Virus record (IMG/VR): IMGVR_UViG_3300020156_000028
Location: 557-64,556 of that record
Strand: one strand, 5' to 3'
Length of the DNA stretch: 64,000 bases
DNA from: a virus
Taxonomy: Duplodnaviria; Caudoviricetes
Position 1 is the stretch's first letter; every line of letters begins with the position of its first letter. Under the pieces are notes generated by a model, which saw only the letters and a program-made list of their open reading frames with translations, was not told the origin of the DNA and searched no databases. Position numbers and translations under genes: made by a program. Of this stretch, positions 5,960-58,003 are shown one piece after another.

Positions 5960-8251
5960 ATGTCCGACGAGATTATCCAGTTCTACATGGAACGGCTGGC
6001 GAGCGGCACCGAGCAATGGGGCCTGCCGCGCGATGTAATCGAAGCTGCCGCGCGCGCGGCGAACGACGTTATCCGCTCACGCGGGAAGCACTACCGCCTT
6101 CACCATGACTTCGAAACATTCTGCGACGTGTCCGTGATGGACGTTGGCTCTGACGTGTACGCGCGACGGGACGCGGCCGAGGTGCTTATGTGCGCCTACG
6201 CCTGCAACGATGAAGCGGTGCTCCAGTGGGTTCCGGCCGAGGGGCAGGAAATGCCGCGCGATCTGGACGAGATGATCCGTGATCCGAACGCCATCAAGTT
6301 CGCGTGGAACAAGCCCTTCGAATGGGCGATCTGGAAGCACGTTCTCGACATCTACGTGCCGCACGAGCACTGGCGCGACCCGATGGTTCTGGCCTATTCG
6401 CTCTCGCTTCCGGGCTCGCTGGAGAAGGCGGGCAAGGTGGTCGAACTGGCCGAGGACCAGCAGAAGATGAAGCGCGGCAAGACGCTGATCAAGAAATTCT
6501 GCATGCCGCGCAAGCCGACCAAGCACAACCCTTCGACCCGATGGATGCCGCATGACGCGCCCGAGGACTGGGAGGAGTTCAAGCTCTACAATCGGACGGA
6601 CGTGGAAGCCGAGCGCGGCATTTACCGGAAGCTCAAGAACTTCGACATGCCGAAGGAAGAGTGGGATTTGTGGGTGATTGATCAGGAGATCAATCAGGCC
6701 GGGATTCCCATCAACATGCCGATGGTCAAGAACGCCATCTCCATCTACGAGGACCTGATGGTCGATACGATGGAGGAAATGAAGACCCTGACCGGGCTCG
6801 ACAACCCCGGCTCGACCAAACAGCTTTTGCCGTGGCTCCGGGATCGCGGCTATCCATTCGAAGACTTGAAGGCTGGCCACGTCAAGCGCGGCGAGGAGAA
6901 GGCGACCGCGCAGCTTGCCGAGGAGGGCGTCAGCGAGGAGCAGGCCGAGGCGTTGGTCGAGATCGTTCTGGACACGCTGCGGGCCGGGCAGGACTATATC
7001 TGGCAGGCCGAATGGGAAGAGATCGCGGTGATCCGGCGCGTGCTCTGGCACCGCATCCGGGCCGCCAAAGCTTCGCCGAAAAAGTATTACGCGCTGGTCG
7101 AGGCGTGCGACCAGACGGAAGAAGAGGTCGTGATCCGAAACGCTTTCCAATTCGCCGGGGCCGGTCGGACGTGGCGCTGGAGCGGTCGTTTGTTCCAAGC
7201 CCAGAACTTGCCGCGCCCGGCGACCAAGCTGATCGAGAAGAACATCGCCGTCGCGGCGCAGCATGTCGCCACGCTCTACGCGCCCGCGCTCAAGCTCCTC
7301 TGGCCCGACGCCTTCGACGTGCTGACATCCTGCATCCGGCCCTGCGCGCAAGCGCCGGACGGCTACATGCTGATCGACGCCGACTTGAACGCCATCGAGA
7401 ATCGGGTGCTCGGCTGGATCGCTAAATGCCGGAAAATCCTGCGGGTCTTCGAACTCAATCGCGACCCCTATATCGATTTCGCGACATACCTGTTCGGCGG
7501 CACCTATGACCAGCGGTGGGCGGAATACAAGGGCGGCGACTCCGGCAAGCGCACGATCTCGAAGCCCGGCGTGTTGGGCTGCGGCTACATGCTCGGCGCG
7601 GGCGAGAAACGGTTCAACCGGGAGACCGGCGAGATGGAGGCGACCGGCCTCCTCGGCTACGCATGGAACATGGGGATTACGGAGTTCACGTCCGAGCAGG
7701 CAAAACTCTCGGTCGATACCTTCCGGCGCGAGTTCGAAGAGGTCAAGGATTTCTGGTATGCCATCGAACGGTGCGCGCGGAAGTGCATCAGGACCGGCCT
7801 GCCGCAGCGCCATCACATGATCCGGTTCGACATGAAGGCTCCCTTCATGCGGATGATCCTGCCGAGCGGCCGGGCGCTGCACTATTGCCGTCCGCGTATC
7901 GAGATGATTAAGGCCCCGTGGGGCGAGATGAAGGAAACGATCACCTACGAGGGCCTGAACGACAAGAAGCAATGGGTGCGCCAGCCGACGCATCCCGGCA
8001 AGATCACCGAGAACGCGGACCAAGCGATTGCCCGCGACATCCTCGCCAATGGTATGCGGATCGCCAAACGCGAGTACAAGATCGATATCAGGATTCACGT
8101 CCATGACCAGCTTGTGGGGTTGGTGCCGGAAGCCGAAGCGGAGGAGCGGCTGGAGCAGTTGCAGGAAGCCATGTCGCGGCCGATTCCGTGGGCTCCGGGT
8201 TTGCCGCTCGGCTCGGCCGGGTTCGTCAGCAAGATTTTCGTGAAGGATTGA
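5960..8251 (+). CDS. DNA polymerase family A (3'-5' exonuclease plus polymerase)
   Basis: DFET exo I, YNRTDVEAE exo III, ADLNAIENRVLGW motif A, KPGVLGCGY motif B, HVHDQ motif C. Confidence 0.93.
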   Translation: MSDEIIQFYMERLASGTEQWGLPRDVIEAAARAANDVIRSRGKHYRLHHDFETFCDVSVMDVGSDVYARRDAAEVLMCAYACNDEAVLQWVPAEGQEMPRDLDEMIRDPNAIKFAWNKPFEWAIWKHVLDIYVPHEHWRDPMVLAYSLSLPGSLEKAGKVVELAEDQQKMKRGKTLIKKFCMPRKPTKHNPSTRWMPHDAPEDWEEFKLYNRTDVEAERGIYRKLKNFDMPKEEWDLWVIDQEINQAGIPINMPMVKNAISIYEDLMVDTMEEMKTLTGLDNPGSTKQLLPWLRDRGYPFEDLKAGHVKRGEEKATAQLAEEGVSEEQAEALVEIVLDTLRAGQDYIWQAEWEEIAVIRRVLWHRIRAAKASPKKYYALVEACDQTEEEVVIRNAFQFAGAGRTWRWSGRLFQAQNLPRPATKLIEKNIAVAAQHVATLYAPALKLLWPDAFDVLTSCIRPCAQAPDGYMLIDADLNAIENRVLGWIAKCRKILRVFELNRDPYIDFATYLFGGTYDQRWAEYKGGDSGKRTISKPGVLGCGYMLGAGEKRFNRETGEMEATGLLGYAWNMGITEFTSEQAKLSVDTFRREFEEVKDFWYAIERCARKCIRTGLPQRHHMIRFDMKAPFMRMILPSGRALHYCRPRIEMIKAPWGEMKETITYEGLNDKKQWVRQPTHPGKITENADQAIARDILANGMRIAKREYKIDIRIHVHDQLVGLVPEAEAEERLEQLQEAMSRPIPWAPGLPLGSAGFVSKIFVKD

Positions 8252-54039: not shown

Positions 54040-55248
54040 TCACTCTATTCGGGAGATGGCTTCCTGCATCTCCATAATCTTCTTTTCCATGGTCTCGAAT
54101 TTGAAGGCCAGATCGAGCGCGCTCGCCTGCAATCGGGCGGCCTCGGCGCGCATGTTCTTGGCCTCACCGACCAGCTTGTCGAGGTCTTCGTTGCGCTGCG
54201 TCTTTCCGAAGTTTTCTTCCCGGACATCCTTGATCCATGCGCGCGGGACATTCAAGGTGTCGGCGAGGTGCTGGTCGGACGCGGAGCCGATATACCGGCC
54301 CTTGGATTCATCCCAGTTCTCGTCAATAGCTCGGAAGACGCGGCGCTTGTCGGCCGCCGTCATCTGGCGCGGGGGTTCGATGGCGACTGGTGCTTGGGGC
54401 ATGGAGATAACCTTGGCTTCGATTTTCGGGGGGTTGAGGCATGTGGGGCAGACGCACTTCTTGCCGACCTGCCAGCCCTTCTGCTTGAACTTCTTGGTCA
54501 AGACCGTCTGGGGCAGGGAGCCGGTGTGGCCGCTGGCGATGATCTCGTCTCGGGCCTTGCAGCGTGAGCACTCGATGACGTAGCCGGAGCGGTCTCGGCC
54601 GTCTTCGGCGCGTAAGGTGGTTCGGGCGAAAGCGTGGCCCATCCTTGTGATCTCCTCTCGGTTGGATTTGACCCGCACGGCGATCCCGGTCAGGGTGGGC
54701 ACGTCGTCGGGGATGTGGTAGACCGTCGCGGCCGGGACCGGCAGGCGGCGGCCGTGGTAGAGCGTGGAATCGGCGTCTCGCTGCTCAATAAGATCGGCGT
54801 CGGGGTTCCAGCGCATGGCCTCGACCAGCAGCCACATGAACATCATGTAGCGTGCGTCATTGTCGGCGAGGTCTTCGTCTACCACACCCGTCTGGTCGCA
54901 GACGAAGGCGAGATCGCGAAGCCGGAAGACCGCGCGGCCCTTGAGCATGGCGAACGCGGACCACTGGTAGAAGTGCAGAAGCGCGCCATCCCAGACCGTG
55001 AAATGGAGGATGTCGGATTCCTTGCCGATCTGGGTAACAGAGGGCTCCGGCGGGTGATCCCAGAGGTCGCCGAGGGCCGGGGCCATGACCCCGGACCACG
55101 ATTTGTCGAGCCGTTTGATGTTGGAAAGCGCGATCCGTGCCCGAGAAGCCGTGAAGAGATCGCGGTGCGGGAAGTCGATTGCGTCCACCGTAAAGCGGCC
55201 GTTTTTCATCACGGCCTGCAATAGCCGTATCTCTTCGAAGGTCTTCAT
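54040..55248 (-). CDS. Two-domain hypothetical protein; C-terminal Zn-ribbon, HTH-like region and coiled coil
   Basis: CSRC...CVCPTC, SDQHLADTLNVPRAWIKDVREENFG; internal RBS and ATG at 54642. Confidence 0.7.
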   Translation of the reverse strand: MKTFEEIRLLQAVMKNGRFTVDAIDFPHRDLFTASRARIALSNIKRLDKSWSGVMAPALGDLWDHPPEPSVTQIGKESDILHFTVWDGALLHFYQWSAFAMLKGRAVFRLRDLAFVCDQTGVVDEDLADNDARYMMFMWLLVEAMRWNPDADLIEQRDADSTLYHGRRLPVPAATVYHIPDDVPTLTGIAVRVKSNREEITRMGHAFARTTLRAEDGRDRSGYVIECSRCKARDEIIASGHTGSLPQTVLTKKFKQKGWQVGKKCVCPTCLNPPKIEAKVISMPQAPVAIEPPRQMTAADKRRVFRAIDENWDESKGRYIGSASDQHLADTLNVPRAWIKDVREENFGKTQRNEDLDKLVGEAKNMRAEAARLQASALDLAFKFETMEKKIMEMQEAISRIE

Positions 55249-55745
55249 AGCGGGTAGCTCGGGTCGGTGAAGTAGCGGGCGCAAATCTCGTCATACTTAG
55301 CGAGGACGTGGGTATAATCGACTTCGACGGCCCGGAGCCCAAGCCTACGCTTGGTCATACCACTACGGGGTTCTCGCACCTCGTATTCCACCACGGCCAG
55401 CCGGGCATGGATTCTGTGGAACAGCCAGTCGCGCTTGATGTTGGCCGCGTCGGAAAATCGGAAGATGTCGGCGACTTGCCGCATCGGGTTCCGGTTGTCG
55501 CCAGCCGTGACGATCTGAGGCGGGTGTTTCGCCGTGAGACGGATCATCTTCGTATTGGCCAGATCGGGCGAGTCGCCCGTTTTGGCGGGATCGATTAGTC
55601 GCCAATCCACCCATCGAAGCTCCTCGGGAAGATCATCCCAAAGGATGGAAACACCGTACAGGCGGGTGTTTGATGGCTCGAAATTGTAGCTCTCGTAGAA
55701 GCTCGGCCAGTACAGGCGGCTCGCGGTGATGATCCTATCGTCCAT
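55245..55745 (-). CDS. Hypothetical protein, possibly divergent SSB (DUF2815-like)
   Basis: SRLYWPSFYE...YGVSIL...LGLRAVEV resembles SSB motifs. Confidence 0.55.
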   Translation of the reverse strand: MDDRIITASRLYWPSFYESYNFEPSNTRLYGVSILWDDLPEELRWVDWRLIDPAKTGDSPDLANTKMIRLTAKHPPQIVTAGDNRNPMRQVADIFRFSDAANIKRDWLFHRIHARLAVVEYEVREPRSGMTKRRLGLRAVEVDYTHVLAKYDEICARYFTDPSYPL

Positions 55746-56001
55746 CGTTCTTCCCCGTGTAGTCGTTCTCCCGCAGAACATGCAGCAGGGCTTCTTGGAT
55801 GAAGGGCTCCAATGCGATCTCGGCCTCGTTCCGCTCGCCCTTGATCCGCCAGACGAACGGGTTGTTGGTCCGCTGGATTTCCAGTCGTTCGCCCGTGGCC
55901 GAGGTCGTGGTGGCGATGGTTTCGGTAAGCCAGAGATGGGTCGGTTTCTCGGGGATCGGGGTGACGGTGACGCGCGGCGCGTTGATGTTGATGTCAGTCA
56001 T
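55735..56001 (-). CDS. Hypothetical protein
   Basis: MTDININAP...; overlaps both neighbours. Confidence 0.6.
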   Translation of the reverse strand: MTDININAPRVTVTPIPEKPTHLWLTETIATTTSATGERLEIQRTNNPFVWRIKGERNEAEIALEPFIQEALLHVLRENDYTGKNDGR

Positions 56002-56167
56002 GATGCCAGTGTCCACATTTGGTGCAAACCATGATCGGGCCGGAGAAGCCCCAACTGCTCTCGTAAGCGTGTTGGCAGGGCGGTGTTTGCGGCGTTCTGA
56101 CCTCGCGGTACATCTCACGGATCGGGGTGTCCTTATGAACTATGGGCTTGTTCCAGATGTCAGGCAT
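55994..56167 (-). CDS. 57-aa Zn-ribbon-like protein (not in ORF track)
   Basis: GGAG RBS; MPDIWNK...CQHAYE...CTKCGH. Confidence 0.6.
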   Translation of the reverse strand: MPDIWNKPIVHKDTPIREMYREVRTPQTPPCQHAYESSWGFSGPIMVCTKCGHWHHD

Positions 56168-56188
56168 GGCGGTTCTCCGGTTAAAAAA

Positions 56189-56250
56189 AAGGCGTCCTAC
56201 CAGTTAGACGACGGGCCGAGACCCGGCAGGATTCGAACCTGCATTTCCTT
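56189..56250 (-). ncRNA. Circularly permuted tRNA-like RNA module B (YrlA-like topology)
   Basis: AAGG-AAAT-GCAGG TTCGAAT CCTGC-CGGGT CTCG GCCCG-TC-GTCT AACTGGTA GGAC-G-CCTT, running into a T8 tract. Confidence 0.75.
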
Positions 56251-56253
56251 GTC

Positions 56254-56306
56254 GGGGTGTCCTGACCGTTAGACGACAAAGGCCGGATTCGAACCGGCGT
56301 TTCCCC
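56254..56306 (-). ncRNA. Circularly permuted tRNA-like RNA module A
   Basis: GGGG-AAAC-GCCGG TTCGAAT CCGGC-CTTTG-TC-GTCT AACGGTCA GGAC-A-CCCC. Confidence 0.72.
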
Positions 56307-56315
56307 ATTAGAAGT

Positions 56316-56379
56316 TGGAGGGGCGTAGCAGGCGTTGAACCTACCTCTGGCTCGTCCCGAACCACCGGGCCGCCCCTCC
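56316..56379 (-). ncRNA. Anticodon-less tRNA-like element ending in CCA
   Basis: GGAGGGGCG/CGCCCCTCC closing stem, GTAGG TTCAACG CCTGC T-like arm, 3' CCA. Confidence 0.5.
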
Positions 56380-56440
56380 CGCCAGACGGCCATCGCGGAA
56401 GCGAAGTCCTGCGCCGTCTGGCCCGCGTCAGGAACGCGGT

Positions 56441-57538
56441 TTACTTGACCGCCACGAGGTCGAGAAGCTTGCCAGCCTCGCGCTCCAGTTCCACGCGCTC
56501 GTCCTGAAACTGGATCGACTTGGCGTGGGCGGTGAGGCCGGTCACGACATCCCAGAGGGTTTCGACCGGGCGGTCTTCCTCGCGCTCGTGGGCGGCCTTG
56601 ATCAGCGTGGACATGCGGCCCGTGAAGCGCTTCTGCATGAAGGCGTCGAGGTCGTCGCCGAGCTTCTTTTCCTGCGCCGCCTTGATCGTCTCTTCAATCG
56701 GCTTGGCGAGCGCGTTCGAATACTCGGTCAGGACCGGCGTGATCTCCTCCAGCCAGCGGTCGGGCGCGGAGACGGTGTGGCGGATACGGATTTCCTTGAA
56801 GTCCTGCGCGCCCCAGACGATCCGGTTGCAGCACGCATAGTCGAACAGGAAGAACGCCGCGCCGAGCGACTTGTCGCCGACTTCCGAGTTCCAGATGAAG
56901 AAGCCGCGCGCCAGCGTGCCGCTCTCGCCGTTGCGGCGATTGTTGACCGAGACCCGGTTCTTCTCGTCGGCGAGGAAGACGAACATGTCGCGATCCGAGG
57001 CGAACAGCGTCGTGTTGTCCTTGGTGATCGGCACGTCCTTGCCGAACTCGCCCGGCACCTTCCAGTCGCCGGTCACGCCGTCGCCGAACTTGTCGCGCAG
57101 GGCACCGACGATTTCCGAGTTCCAGACGCGGCCGTAGCGCGGGCCGGTGGCGGCCGTGACCATGGTCTCGGGCTCGTAGGTCAGGATGCCGACTTCCTCG
57201 GCGTCACGGTTGAACCGCATGGAGTAGTTCAGGGCATCGCAGGCGATGGGAGCGGCCAGCGTGCGCAGAAACCCGGCCGGAGCCTTGGCGAGCGCGGCGG
57301 CCTGACCGAACGACCAGTGATTCACGTCGTTCACGTCGCCGTTGACGGCCACCTTGAGACCCTTGAAGGTCTTGTCGTTCTCGTCCGGCACGAACTCGAT
57401 CCGGCGCGTCGAGGCGACACGGCCGACCGAATTGTCACGGATATGGTGGGTCTTGTCGAAGAGGGCGTCCAGCGAGGTGAAGCGCTCGTCGCTCGGACGA
57501 GTGGCCCACTGGTGGGAAGCGTGCATGAGAGTTGCCAT
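56441..57538 (-). CDS. DUF932-family protein
   Basis: ASHQWATRPSDERFTSL, HWSFGQ, LFASDRDMFVFL, RGFFIWNSEVG, CCNRIVWG, IRIRHT; AGGAG RBS. Confidence 0.82.
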   Translation of the reverse strand: MATLMHASHQWATRPSDERFTSLDALFDKTHHIRDNSVGRVASTRRIEFVPDENDKTFKGLKVAVNGDVNDVNHWSFGQAAALAKAPAGFLRTLAAPIACDALNYSMRFNRDAEEVGILTYEPETMVTAATGPRYGRVWNSEIVGALRDKFGDGVTGDWKVPGEFGKDVPITKDNTTLFASDRDMFVFLADEKNRVSVNNRRNGESGTLARGFFIWNSEVGDKSLGAAFFLFDYACCNRIVWGAQDFKEIRIRHTVSAPDRWLEEITPVLTEYSNALAKPIEETIKAAQEKKLGDDLDAFMQKRFTGRMSTLIKAAHEREEDRPVETLWDVVTGLTAHAKSIQFQDERVELEREAGKLLDLVAVK

Positions 57539-57580
57539 TGGTCGTCTCCTGTCAGGGTTGTCGGGTCTGGCCCGGCCCCT

Positions 57581-57609
57581 TCTATAGTCCCAACTTTCCG
57601 TTGGCACAA
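57581..57609 (-). promoter_or_regulatory. Promoter/operator of DUF932 gene
   Basis: TTGTGC-N17-TATAGA overlapping CCAAC-GGAAA-GTTGG. Confidence 0.55.
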
Positions 57610-57640
57610 TAGGAAATCGACATTCTGGAAAATATTTTTT

Positions 57641-57673
57641 AAAAAACCCCCGGAACCGGGGTTCCGAGGGTTT
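57641..57673 (-). terminator. Rho-independent terminator
   Basis: Minus strand AAACCCTCGGAACC-CC-GGTTCCGGGGG-TTTTTT. Confidence 0.7.
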
Positions 57674-57724
57674 CAGTTTCACTGAGGGTCAATTCAAGGA
57701 GGTTGCGATGCTCCGATTCCAAGA

Positions 57725-58003
57725 CTAGGCAGAGTCTCCGGGATCGTCAACCCACACCTTGAAAGGCGCGCCCGCGTGGCGCACGCCCTCCTCATATGCC
57801 GCAATCCGCTCTCCAGCCATCGTGCCGCCGCAGTTGACGCAGGTCGAGCGCTTGCCGAAGCGGTACTCGGCGGAACGGAACTGATGGCGTGTACACGCCT
57901 TCAAGATTTCGTGGTTGTGGCGCACTTCCTCGAAGGTCTTGCGTATCTCGTCCTTCGAGAGACCCGTCGCGGCCCCAAGCCGATCTACGAGCTTTTCGGT
58001 CAT
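57725..58003 (-). CDS. Small Zn-binding hypothetical protein
   Basis: CTRHQF...TCVNCGG; start assigned to MTEKL. Confidence 0.65.
   Translation of the reverse strand: MTEKLVDRLGAATGLSKDEIRKTFEEVRHNHEILKACTRHQFRSAEYRFGKRSTCVNCGGTMAGERIAAYEEGVRHAGAPFKVWVDDPGDSA

What the first reader, a model, noticed from the sequence alone, without database searches (positions are those of the whole stretch)
56183..56306. Tandem circularly permuted tRNA mimics (elbow-only, Y-RNA-like) with no Ro60 gene
Seen on the minus strand: two adjacent modules, each ordered closing stem 5' > variable loop (AAAY) > 5-bp T arm with perfect TTCGAAT loop > closed acceptor hairpin > TC linker > D arm (GTCT-AAC(T)GGT(C)A-GGAC) > purine > closing stem 3'. 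Stems covary between copies (T stem GCCGG/CCGGC vs GCAGG/CCTGC; closing GGGG/CCCC vs AAGG/CCTT) while the D-loop GG and T-loop elbow bases are kept, which indicates selection on structure. The acceptor is 5 bp in one module and a CTTTG stub in the other. There is no anticodon and no CCA; a T8 tract follows. Established: T > acceptor > D permutation is the topology of bacterial YrlA Y RNAs, which normally have a long Ro-binding stem and lie beside a Ro60/TROVE gene; neither is here. Inference: a new phage RNA presenting bare tRNA elbows, as decoys for tRNA-targeting defence nucleases or other elbow-binding proteins, or as a partner of the co-transcribed DUF932 protein.
Basis: partly seen in the sequence, partly recalled or inferred. 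Interest (0 to 1): 0.9.

Follow-up and report, generated by a model that had tools for sequence, protein, structure and literature searches.

The report
Twin back-to-front tRNA mimics, no Ro60
A soil phage carries two adjacent small RNA modules, each a tRNA body with its parts in rotated order, a sealed or missing acceptor end and no anticodon; they match the tRNA-like half of bacterial Y RNAs but lack the stem and the Ro60 protein those RNAs work with, and their job is untested.

Summary
On the minus strand, 56306-56254 and 56250-56189 are two permuted tRNA-like modules followed by a T8 tract. Both fold as described, and they are the only stem-flanked TTCGAAT sites in the window.

Module 2 matches the tRNA-like domain of Rfam YrlA at 29.8 bits, below the 69-bit cut-off. 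The long Ro60-binding stem is absent. The complete 64.5-kb phage record has no TROVE/Ro60, DUF2828, DUF7788 or DUF7873 gene and no tRNA gene.

Modules of the same design with short closing stems recur in other phage-type contigs:
- in series in G003 and L150
- nested in L122, L140 and L145

Across 10 such modules, 96.3% of pair cells are paired and 11 of 17 pairs show compensatory changes. One soil RNA-library contig lies exactly on the two modules.

The link to DUF932 fails: 0 of 7 homologous loci carry the RNA.

Best reading: a Ro60-independent, two-bodied tRNA-core mimic. Its function is untested.

This scan has noted tandem and nested mimics of this kind many times on other DNA, mostly beside DUF7873. 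I found no paper describing them.

The parts
56441..57682 (-). Upstream gene, 413 aa, DUF932-like. The RNA region begins right after its stop codon.
   Evidence: Pfam DUF932 scores 20.9 bits, below the 23-bit cut-off. phrog_1362 scores E 9e-48. No sigma-70-like promoter is predicted between it and the modules.
56381..56439 (-). Two hairpins after the stop codon: 56439-56423, and 56422-56381 with a 10-bp outer stem.
Evidence: MFE fold of 56440-56168. No comparative support.
56317..56379 (-). Third tRNA-like unit, in normal order. It has a 9-bp closing (acceptor-like) stem, a D-like hairpin with GG and a T-like arm with a TTCAACG loop, and no anticodon arm.
   Evidence: Sequence, MFE fold and a weak tRNA-Sec match of 17.3 bits, E 1.4. 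Weakly supported.
56254..56306 (-). Module 1: a permuted tRNA-core mimic whose acceptor is reduced to a 5-nt stub.
   Evidence: Model R1 scores 66.5 bits, but this module was a training sequence.
56251..56253 (-). 3-nt linker between the modules.
   Evidence: The series pairs in G003 and L150 have gaps of 3-4 nt.
56189..56250 (-). Module 2: a permuted tRNA-core mimic with a sealed 5-bp acceptor hairpin.
   Evidence: Rfam YrlA 29.8 bits, model positions 30-81 of 114. R1 75.3 bits, training sequence. Fold energies.
56183..56190 (-). T8 tract. Its first two T pair in the closing stem of module 2. Likely an intrinsic terminator and the 3' end of the RNA.
   Evidence: The terminator scan lists the D arm of module 2 plus this T run. 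G003 modules B and C end the same way.
56135..56320 (.). Stretch covered by the one contig of a soil RNA library (run X3).
   Evidence: table 8: record 15, 186 nt, 0 other letters, 0 gaps, depth 3.6. Contigs show no strand and no ends, and DNA carry-over is not excluded.
55994..56167 (-). Downstream 57-aa ORF with a GGAG ribosome-binding site and a C-terminal Cys/His cluster. No family match.

Best explanation
The two modules are a real structured RNA. Each is a stand-alone copy of the tRNA-like (effector-binding) domain of YrlA-type Y RNAs, joined head to tail and lacking the Ro60-binding stem.

Shown or directly readable:
- Each module keeps the bases that build the L-shaped tRNA core: U8 and A14, the D-loop GG, T-loop TTCGAAT, G53-C61 and purine 26.
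- Each is closed by a 4-bp stem where the anticodon stem would be.
- Each has a sealed or missing acceptor end, so it cannot be charged or read codons.

Inferred:
- The RNA is made as the tail of the DUF932-like transcript, or cut from it, and ends at the T8 terminator.
- It works without Ro60 by offering two tRNA bodies to a factor that recognises the tRNA elbow and core. It would act as a sponge or competitor, or as a scaffold for a two-site or dimeric binder.
- The target is unknown. Candidates are tRNA-processing or tRNA-modifying enzymes, the unidentified YrlA effector, or a tRNA-directed defence protein.
For: - Anatomy and chance: as given in the observation check.
- Fold: the proposed fold is within 0.2-2.6 kcal/mol of the MFE.
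- Same family as true YrlA domains. Bacterial modules that were not in the training set score 61-64 bits with R1 (L081, L102, L103, L094, L107). 4 of 5 of the tested bacterial genomes hold TROVE.
- The short-closing form recurs in 5 other contigs: G003/L027 (two in series plus one single, each unit behind a sigma-70-like promoter and ending in a T run), L150 (two in series), and L122, L140 and L145 (nested).
- Covariation in these 10 modules: 96.3% of 161 cells paired against 70.3% in shuffles (0 of 500 reach it). 11 of 17 pairs change on both sides. The closing helix is 95% paired, with 3 of 4 pairs compensatory. Slid controls give 35-56% paired.
- Covariation in 23 modules including Ro-linked ones: 95.0% against 70.8%.
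- No long stem. Flank duplex energies are -11 to -17 kcal/mol, like shuffles, against -25 to -29 for the Acidobacteriota YrlAs and the second L094 copy; the other Ro60-linked modules (L044, first L094 copy) scored like shuffles.
- No Ro60-type or DUF7873 gene in G000. In G003, no TROVE, DUF2828 or DUF7788, and 0 of 52 ORFs of 190-330 aa match DUF7873.
- One 186-nt contig from a soil RNA library, in a different study, is identical to 56135-56320.
- Wang et al. (10.1101/312249, passages read) expect the YrlA tRNA-like domain to bind a tRNA-binding protein at the elbow.
Against: - No close relative of this phage carries the element, so support for this copy rests on two paralogous modules plus distant look-alikes.
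- Alignments A3 and A6 are fitted to model R1, which was built from 7 of these modules. Pair counts therefore lean towards the structure.
- The D-arm sequence was fixed by my search patterns, so its conservation is ascertainment, not evidence.
- The MFE of the 124 nt replaces both closing stems with a 7-bp helix.
- The stretch is no more stable than shuffles (z -0.56).
- The RNA-library evidence is a single low-depth contig. It shows no strand or ends, runs 48 nt past the T8 tract, and DNA carry-over is not excluded.
- The host is unknown and may encode Ro60.
- Nothing here identifies a binding partner or an effect on infection.
Confidence: 0.6

Rival explanations
1. A cis-acting 3' end of the DUF932-like mRNA. 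The compact tRNA-shaped folds and the T8 terminator would protect the transcript from 3' exonucleases, mark a processing site, or attenuate read-through into the downstream genes. There would be no trans-acting mimicry.
For: - The element lies between a stop codon and a terminator, with no predicted promoter of its own.
- The closing stem and D arm of module 2 form the terminator hairpin.
- The RNA-library contig runs 48 nt past the T8 tract, which would fit partial read-through.
Against: - In G003 the same kind of modules are promoter-to-terminator units with no ORF.
- 7 of 7 DUF932 homologues use plain terminator hairpins instead.
- A mere stabiliser would not need the tRNA tertiary-contact bases kept in both modules.
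Confidence: 0.15
2. A true Y RNA that works with a Ro60 supplied by the host, or with a phage Ro-like protein too divergent to detect.
For: - It resembles the YrlA tRNA-like domain.
- Phage G002 has such a module within about 1 kb of a TROVE gene.
- Phage G001 has such modules right after a DUF2828 + DUF7788 (vWA) gene.
- The host genome is not available.
Against: - Ro60 binds the long 5'/3' stem of Y RNAs (Chen 2014, PMC4201824; Wang 2018, passages read). Here the closing stems are 4 bp and the flanks do not pair better than shuffles.
- No TROVE, DUF2828 or DUF7788 in six-frame searches.
- None among 142 ORFs scanned.
Confidence: 0.1
3. Non-functional debris: rearranged or duplicated pieces of a glutamate-type tRNA gene that lost its anticodon arm.
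For: - The D arm is of the tRNA-Glu type seen in phage tRNA arrays.
- The Rfam tRNA model scores 26.7 bits across the two modules, just under its 29-bit cut-off.
- Real debris of this kind exists. L124 has a duplicated 3' part of a tRNA-Gln that scores 56 bits with R1.
Against: - The phage has no tRNA genes.
- In the normal-order reading the acceptor strands do not pair (alignment).
- Both closing stems and the hairpin of module 2 are perfectly paired, with three compensated differences between the copies.
- The design recurs with covariation elsewhere.
- An RNA-library contig covers it.
Confidence: 0.1
4. RNA partner of the co-transcribed DUF932-like protein, forming a gene-plus-RNA particle.
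For: - It lies directly after the gene, with no promoter predicted between them.
- This scan's earlier notes describe a protein-then-twin-mimic layout for DUF7873 (unchecked AI notes).
Against: - 0 of 7 homologous DUF932-like loci have any R1 match next to the gene.
- Look-alike RNAs follow an HNH gene (L150) or tRNA genes (G003).
- The protein shows no DUF7873 signal even at E 10.
Confidence: 0.05

Closest known systems
YrlA (Y RNA-like A, Rfam RF02553), the tRNA-mimicking Y RNA bound by bacterial and phage Ro60/Rsr. Sources: Chen et al. 2014, PMC4201824 (passages read); Wang et al. 2018, bioRxiv 10.1101/312249 (passages read).
   Same: - Order T arm > loop-sealed acceptor stem > 2-nt linker > D arm.
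- No anticodon loop and no CCA.
- tRNA tertiary-contact bases are kept.
- Rfam aligns module 2 to model positions 30-81.
- Bona fide bacterial YrlA domains score like the phage modules with R1.
   Different: - No long 5'/3' stem.
- 29.8 bits against a 69-bit cut-off.
- No Ro60 gene in the phage.
- Two modules sit 3 nt apart.
- One module has no acceptor stem at all.
Canonical tRNA (Rfam RF00005), glutamate type
   Same: D arm, T arm, the 8-9 linker, position 26 and variable-loop length are tRNA-like. The tRNA model scores 26.7 bits across the D arm of module 1 and the T arm of module 2.
   Different: - Rotated order.
- No anticodon arm.
- No free acceptor ends or CCA.
- ARAGORN calls nothing.
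- The score is below the Rfam cut-off.
Two-piece (circularly permuted) tmRNA of alphaproteobacteria (recalled: Keiler, Shapiro and Williams 2000; not read here)
   Same: The gene order places the T arm and acceptor 3' strand ahead of the acceptor 5' strand and D-like region. The phage's GapR-like and BR0599-type genes are, from my recall and not tested here, typical of alphaproteobacteria and their phages.
   Different: - No tag reading frame, no pseudoknots, no CCA.
- The acceptor is sealed or absent.
- ARAGORN, which looks for tmRNA genes, finds none.
Twin tRNA-mimic RNAs beside DUF7873, and nested 'double-elbow' phage tRNA mimics. These are known only from this scan's earlier, mostly unchecked AI notes. 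No paper holds the term DUF7873.
   Same: - Two permuted, anticodon-less tRNA bodies in one RNA.
- No Ro60.
- Phage or prophage setting.
- I saw the nested form myself in L122, L140/L148 and L145.
   Different: - Those notes describe 330-490-nt RNAs placed after a ~245-aa DUF7873 gene.
- Here the two bodies fill 124 nt, 3 nt apart.
- 0 of 142 window ORFs match DUF7873.
- I could not compare the RNAs directly.

Membership tests
YrlA (Rfam RF02553) | Permuted order T arm > sealed acceptor stem > D arm, with tRNA tertiary-contact bases | tested here: met
   by inspection. The alignment covers model positions 30-81. Module 1 meets it only in part, because its acceptor is a 5-nt stub.
YrlA (Rfam RF02553) | Score at or above the curated gathering score (69 bits) | tested here: not met
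   29.8 bits for module 2, and no match for module 1. The window has 0 matches at gathering scores.
YrlA (Rfam RF02553) | Long stem formed by the 5' and 3' ends that carries the Ro60 binding site | tested here: not met
   The closing stems are 4 bp. Flank duplex energies are -11.4 and -16.3 kcal/mol, z +0.5 and +0.2 against shuffles. The Acidobacteriota YrlAs and the second L094 copy give -25 to -29; L044, the first L094 copy and L107 score like shuffles.
YrlA (Rfam RF02553) | Encoded near (within about 4 kb of) a Ro60/TROVE gene (criterion of Chen et al. 2014) | tested here: not met
   No TROVE, DUF2828 or DUF7788 in the 64.5-kb record, which CheckV rates 100% complete. None among 142 ORFs. 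The host genome is unknown.
YrlA (Rfam RF02553) | Binds Ro60/Rsr | not testable with these tools
   Needs pull-down or EMSA.
tRNA (Rfam RF00005) | Cloverleaf in normal order with an anticodon arm and paired free acceptor ends | tested here: not met
   ARAGORN finds 0 genes. Rfam gives 26.7 bits against a 29-bit cut-off, with unpaired acceptor columns and a 7-nt remnant in place of the anticodon arm.
Two-piece permuted tmRNA | tRNA-Ala-like acceptor with CCA, a tag reading frame and pseudoknots | tested here: not met
   ARAGORN tmRNA search finds none. No CCA and no open acceptor. No tmRNA-clan match in Rfam even at E 10.
DUF7873-partnered twin tRNA-mimic RNA (class from this scan's notes only) | Encoded right after a ~245-aa DUF7873 gene | tested here: not met
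   0 of 69 plus 0 of 73 window ORFs match at E 1e-4. The upstream protein has no DUF7873 signal at E 10. No six-frame search was possible because I lacked the accession.
DUF7873-partnered twin tRNA-mimic RNA (class from this scan's notes only) | RNA-level homology to that 330-490-nt family | not tested
   No member sequence was in hand. A word look-up of the window's modules found no such look-alike.

The most novel reading that the evidence does not exclude
Phages carry a Ro60-independent class of compact 'twin-body' RNAs. These are two YrlA-type tRNA cores, set in series or nested, that have shed the Ro60 handle. They would act as a bivalent sponge for a host factor that reads the tRNA elbow with some sequence specificity. 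That factor could be the still-unidentified effector of the Ro60-YrlA particle or a tRNA-directed defence or repair enzyme. The phage would thereby uncouple or blind a host RNA-surveillance system.
Probability: 0.2. Interest if true: 0.85.

Novelty: new variant of a known kind. Interest (0 to 1): 0.62.

Why it matters
The partner of the tRNA-like half of bacterial Y RNAs is still unknown. Wang et al. 2018 expect an elbow-binding protein.

A natural RNA made only of that half, doubled and freed from Ro60, would be a ready-made bait for finding that partner. It would also show that the domain has a job of its own.

It adds to the picture that phages use non-decoding tRNA look-alikes as well as real tRNAs. 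If the target proves to be a defence or repair factor, this would be a new kind of RNA-based counter-measure.

The instance itself is small and has no close relatives. Its value lies mainly in being a clean, minimal member of a recurring design.

Tried and rejected
**DUF932 link.** Of 25 pattern matches, 7 loci were confirmed as relatives. All 7 have plain terminators downstream. R1 found only noise in them, 10.9-14.6 bits, none beside the gene.

**Close relatives of the phage.**
- blastn of the 276-nt gap against 50,697 phage records gave 13 records. 11 were a 28-nt chance match in tape-measure genes and 2 were a tRNA-Gly piece; no homologue.
- The downstream 414-aa protein found 1 distant locus at 27% identity, which I did not search further.

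**My own descriptor scan.** It was too permissive. It called junctions of ordinary tRNA arrays, so I dropped it in favour of a covariance model.

**Pattern scans are dominated by tight tRNA arrays.**
- 2 of 13 viral hits were real permuted modules.
- of 70 bacterial loci, I read 11 as YrlA-type modules (L065, L077, L080, L081, L089, L094, L098, L102, L103, L107, plus L083 at a contig end). Of these, L098 and L083 were not examined further. The rest were tRNA junctions or a tRNA followed by a chance motif.
- of 33 metagenome loci, ARAGORN called a canonical tRNA over or beside the match in 18. 15 had no such call. Among those 15, L128 looks like a canonical tRNA-Lys, L129 is unclear, and L124/L131 are tRNA debris.

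**L124.** It scored 56 bits with R1 but is a tRNA-Gln with its 3' part duplicated. It stayed in alignment A3 and is not in A6.

**Other readings rejected.**
- tmRNA and attachment-site readings: no tmRNA call, and no integrase among the window's Pfam families.
- DUF7873: not found.

**Flank duplex test.** It separates only the clearest long-stem YrlAs. Several Ro-linked modules (L044, the first L094 copy) also scored like shuffles, so it is a weak test.

**Run X3.** It has no contig elsewhere in 55000-58000. Missing cover in contigs proves nothing, and I do not count it as evidence. Run X2 (DNA, 77% of words) was identical where it covered the region, so it adds no variation.

**Papers.**
- PMC10870794 and PMC6047535 are not held. 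The Wolin-lab reviews, which may discuss Y RNAs away from Ro60, were therefore not read.
- Supplements of Chen 2014, which hold the phage YrlA lists, were not seen.
- 'Not in print' rests on searches only.

Full report
**What is there**

The window is nearly all of a 64,556-nt virus record that CheckV rates 100% complete.

On the minus strand, the 413-aa DUF932-like gene ends at 56441 (Pfam 20.9 bits, below the 23-bit cut-off; phrog_1362 at E 9e-48). The next ORF starts at 56167. The 273-nt gap between them holds, in order:
- two hairpins at 56439-56381
- a normal-order, anticodon-less tRNA-like unit at 56379-56317
- the two flagged modules at 56306-56254 and 56250-56189
- a T8 tract at 56190-56183

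Each has a 4-bp closing stem, a 4-nt variable loop, a 5-bp T stem with a TTCGAAT loop, an acceptor element, a TC linker, a GTCT/GGAC D stem with a GG-bearing loop, a purine, and the closing 3' strand. The acceptor is a 5-nt stub in module 1 and a 5-bp hairpin in module 2. The copies differ by one compensated T-stem pair and two compensated closing pairs.

**Is it more than chance?**

- The window has 18 TTCGAAT sites on both strands. Only these two are flanked by a 5-bp stem. In 300 Markov simulations the mean was 0.1, and 2 of 300 reached two.
- At a loose threshold, Rfam aligns module 2 to positions 30-81 of the 114-position YrlA model (29.8 bits, E 2.4e-4; cut-off 69).
- Rfam also gives the tRNA model 26.7 bits over the D arm of module 1 plus the T arm of module 2. 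That alignment has unpaired acceptor columns.
- At gathering scores nothing in the window matches Rfam, and ARAGORN finds no tRNA or tmRNA.
- Taken alone, each module's MFE is essentially the proposed fold: -16.9 against -16.7 kcal/mol, and -20.4 against -19.0.
- For the 124 nt together the MFE is -40.6 against -38.0 for the proposed fold. The MFE swaps the closing stems for a 7-bp helix between the stub-plus-linker of module 1 and the inter-module linker plus the closing 5' strand of module 2.
- The stretch is not unusually stable (z -0.56), which is common for tRNA-shaped RNAs.

**No Ro60 and no other known partner**

- Six-frame searches of the record find no TROVE, DUF2828 or DUF7788.
- Pfam scans of 69 plus 73 ORFs find none of these, no DUF7873, and no RNA ligase or RtcB.
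- The families found are ordinary phage genes: lambda-type portal, gpA terminase, capsid protein E, VapE, family A polymerase and MT-A70.
- A GapR-like protein and BR0599-type tail genes are also present. From my own knowledge these are typical of alphaproteobacteria and their phages.

**Relatives**

The DUF932 link fails. Seven loci encoding 52-58% identical proteins have only terminator hairpins downstream and no model match beside the gene. blastn against phage records found no homologue.

Pattern scans followed by a covariance model (R1, built from 7 modules) sorted the hits into three groups.

1. *Ordinary junctions of tight tRNA arrays.* These score at most 42 bits.

2. *YrlA-type modules linked to Ro60-type genes.*
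   - Bona fide long-stem YrlAs occur in Acidobacteriota (L081, L102, L103, L077), Cardiobacteriaceae (L094), Kofleriaceae (L065) and Ferruginibacter (L080, L089), often several per locus.
   - The main copies in L081, L102, L103 and L094 score 61-64 bits although they were not in the training set; L077, L065, L080 and L089 score 28-42.
   - TROVE is present in 4 of 5 genomes tested.
   - The fifth, a Polyangiaceae genome, has a lone module between a kinase gene and metK.
   - Phage G002 has a module about 1 kb from a TROVE gene.
   - Phage G001 has three or four modules, each behind a repeated promoter-like element, right after a DUF2828 + DUF7788 (vWA) gene.

3. *Modules with only a short closing stem and no Ro-type gene.*
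   - G003 (97 kb, 98% complete) has two modules in series, 3 nt apart, running from a sigma-70-like promoter to a T run, plus a third module with its own promoter and T run. All lie among tRNA genes.
   - G003 has no TROVE, DUF2828 or DUF7788, and 0 of 52 mid-sized ORFs match DUF7873.
   - L150, a 1-kb sludge contig, has two modules in series, 4 nt apart, after an HNH gene. They share the window's AAAT and AAAC variable loops.
   - L122, L140/L148 and L145 have one permuted module nested where the anticodon loop of a normal-order tRNA-like frame would be.

**Covariation**

| Set | Cells paired | Shuffled | Pairs changed on both sides | Slid controls |
|---|---|---|---|---|
| 23 modules | 95.0% of 380 | 70.8% (0 of 500 reach it) | 12 of 17 | 33-54% |
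| 10 short-closing modules: window 2, G003 3, L150 2, L140, L145, L122 | 96.3% of 161 | 70.3% (0 of 500 reach it) | 11 of 17 | 35-56% |

In the 10-module set the closing helix is 95% paired, with 3 of 4 pairs compensatory.

Caveats:
- The alignments are fitted to the model.
- Five of the ten modules trained the model.
- L124, a false positive, sits in the 23-row set.
- The D-arm sequence was fixed by my patterns.

Flank pairing separates the forms only roughly. The Acidobacteriota YrlAs and the second L094 copy give -25 to -29 kcal/mol, and the short-closing group gives -11 to -17, like shuffles.

**Expression**

A soil DNA run from another study holds 77% of the sampled words and is identical where it covers the region. 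A soil metatranscriptome from a third study holds one 186-nt contig, identical to 56135-56320. That span is the two modules plus 14 nt upstream and 48 nt downstream.

This shows the sequence is present in an RNA library. It shows no strand and no ends, and it does not exclude DNA carry-over.

**Reading**

Each module equals the tRNA-like, effector-binding domain of YrlA as solved by Wang et al. (L-shaped, sealed acceptor, no anticodon loop), without the Ro60 handle.

I conclude that this is a real, probably expressed, Ro60-independent two-bodied tRNA-core mimic. I put this at about 0.6 overall, and higher for the structure alone.

How it acts is inference. The most likely mode is presenting two tRNA elbows to a host factor, as a sponge or scaffold.

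The rivals, with my probabilities, are:
- a cis-acting 3'-end element (0.15)
- a Y RNA that uses a host Ro60 (0.1)
- tRNA debris (0.1)
- a partner of the DUF932-like protein (0.05)

**Novelty**

Chen et al. 2014 searched only within 4 kb of Ro60 and discarded tandem-tRNA overlaps. Later papers I could read tie phage Y-like RNAs to Ro60.

My searches found no description of Ro-less, handle-less or doubled modules. Two reviews and all supplements were not available.

This scan's own notes have recorded tandem (mostly DUF7873-linked) and nested versions many times on other DNA. The design is therefore not new to the scan.

This copy is a compact variant without DUF7873. I class it as a new variant of a known kind, with interest 0.62.

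Noticed in passing
window 56317-56439 (minus strand): The rest of the gap is also structured. It holds two hairpins and a normal-order, anticodon-less tRNA-like unit with a 9-bp closing stem and a TTCAACG T-like loop. The gap may therefore carry three tRNA-shaped bodies. Support is weak: 17 bits to tRNA-Sec, and the MFE fold only.
   Followed up: partly
window 56275-56281 with 56247-56253 (minus strand): A 7-bp helix could form between the stub-plus-linker of module 1 and the inter-module linker plus the closing 5' strand of module 2. It competes with both closing stems and is used in the MFE (-40.6 against -38.0 kcal/mol). It could be a switch or could be chance. There are no homologues to test it.
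   Followed up: partly
L013 13300-13920 minus strand (= L029 about 2090-2700); gene at L029 2700-4142 minus strand: Phage G001 (88 kb, complete) has a 480-aa DUF2828 + DUF7788 (vWA, MIDAS-like) gene. It is followed by three or four small units, each behind a repeated promoter-like element and each a permuted tRNA-like module. One unit has an acceptor 3' strand ending in ACCA, then about 70 nt, then the matching 5' strand. This looks like a Ro60-analogue locus with several Y-like RNAs.
   Followed up: partly
L122 5040-5225; L140 1119-1320 and L145 1570-1770 (minus strands): These are nested two-bodied RNAs. A normal-order tRNA-like frame (outer acceptor stem, D arm, T arm) carries a permuted module where the anticodon loop would be. 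Outer acceptor and inner closing stems differ between L140 and L145 by compensated changes. In L140 and L145 the RNA follows a tRNA gene and precedes a small Cys-rich ORF.
   Followed up: partly
L123 about 6920-7130 (minus strand): An anticodon-less tRNA-like unit appears to be inserted in the anticodon loop of a larger tRNA-like frame that ends in ACCA but has an odd T region.
   Followed up: no
L124 2780-2960: A full tRNA-Gln(CUG) is preceded by a duplicate of its own T arm and acceptor 3' strand. This is an att-type or tandem duplication that imitates a permuted module (56 bits with R1). It is a useful false-positive control.
   Followed up: yes
L107 5436-5499 (minus strand): A lone YrlA-type module (62 bits) lies between a Ser/Thr kinase gene and metK in a Polyangiaceae genome where no TROVE match was found. 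The genome may be incomplete.
   Followed up: partly
window, whole: The phage encodes a GapR-like DNA-binding protein, BR0599 and DUF2460 tail proteins, an MT-A70 methylase and a DUF2800 nuclease. It has no tRNA genes and no integrase family match. GapR and BR0599 suggest an alphaproteobacterial host (my recall).
   Followed up: no
window 56181-56393 (minus strand): A 70-codon ATG ORF overlaps the RNA region. I did not test it for coding, and I take it to be spurious.
   Followed up: no
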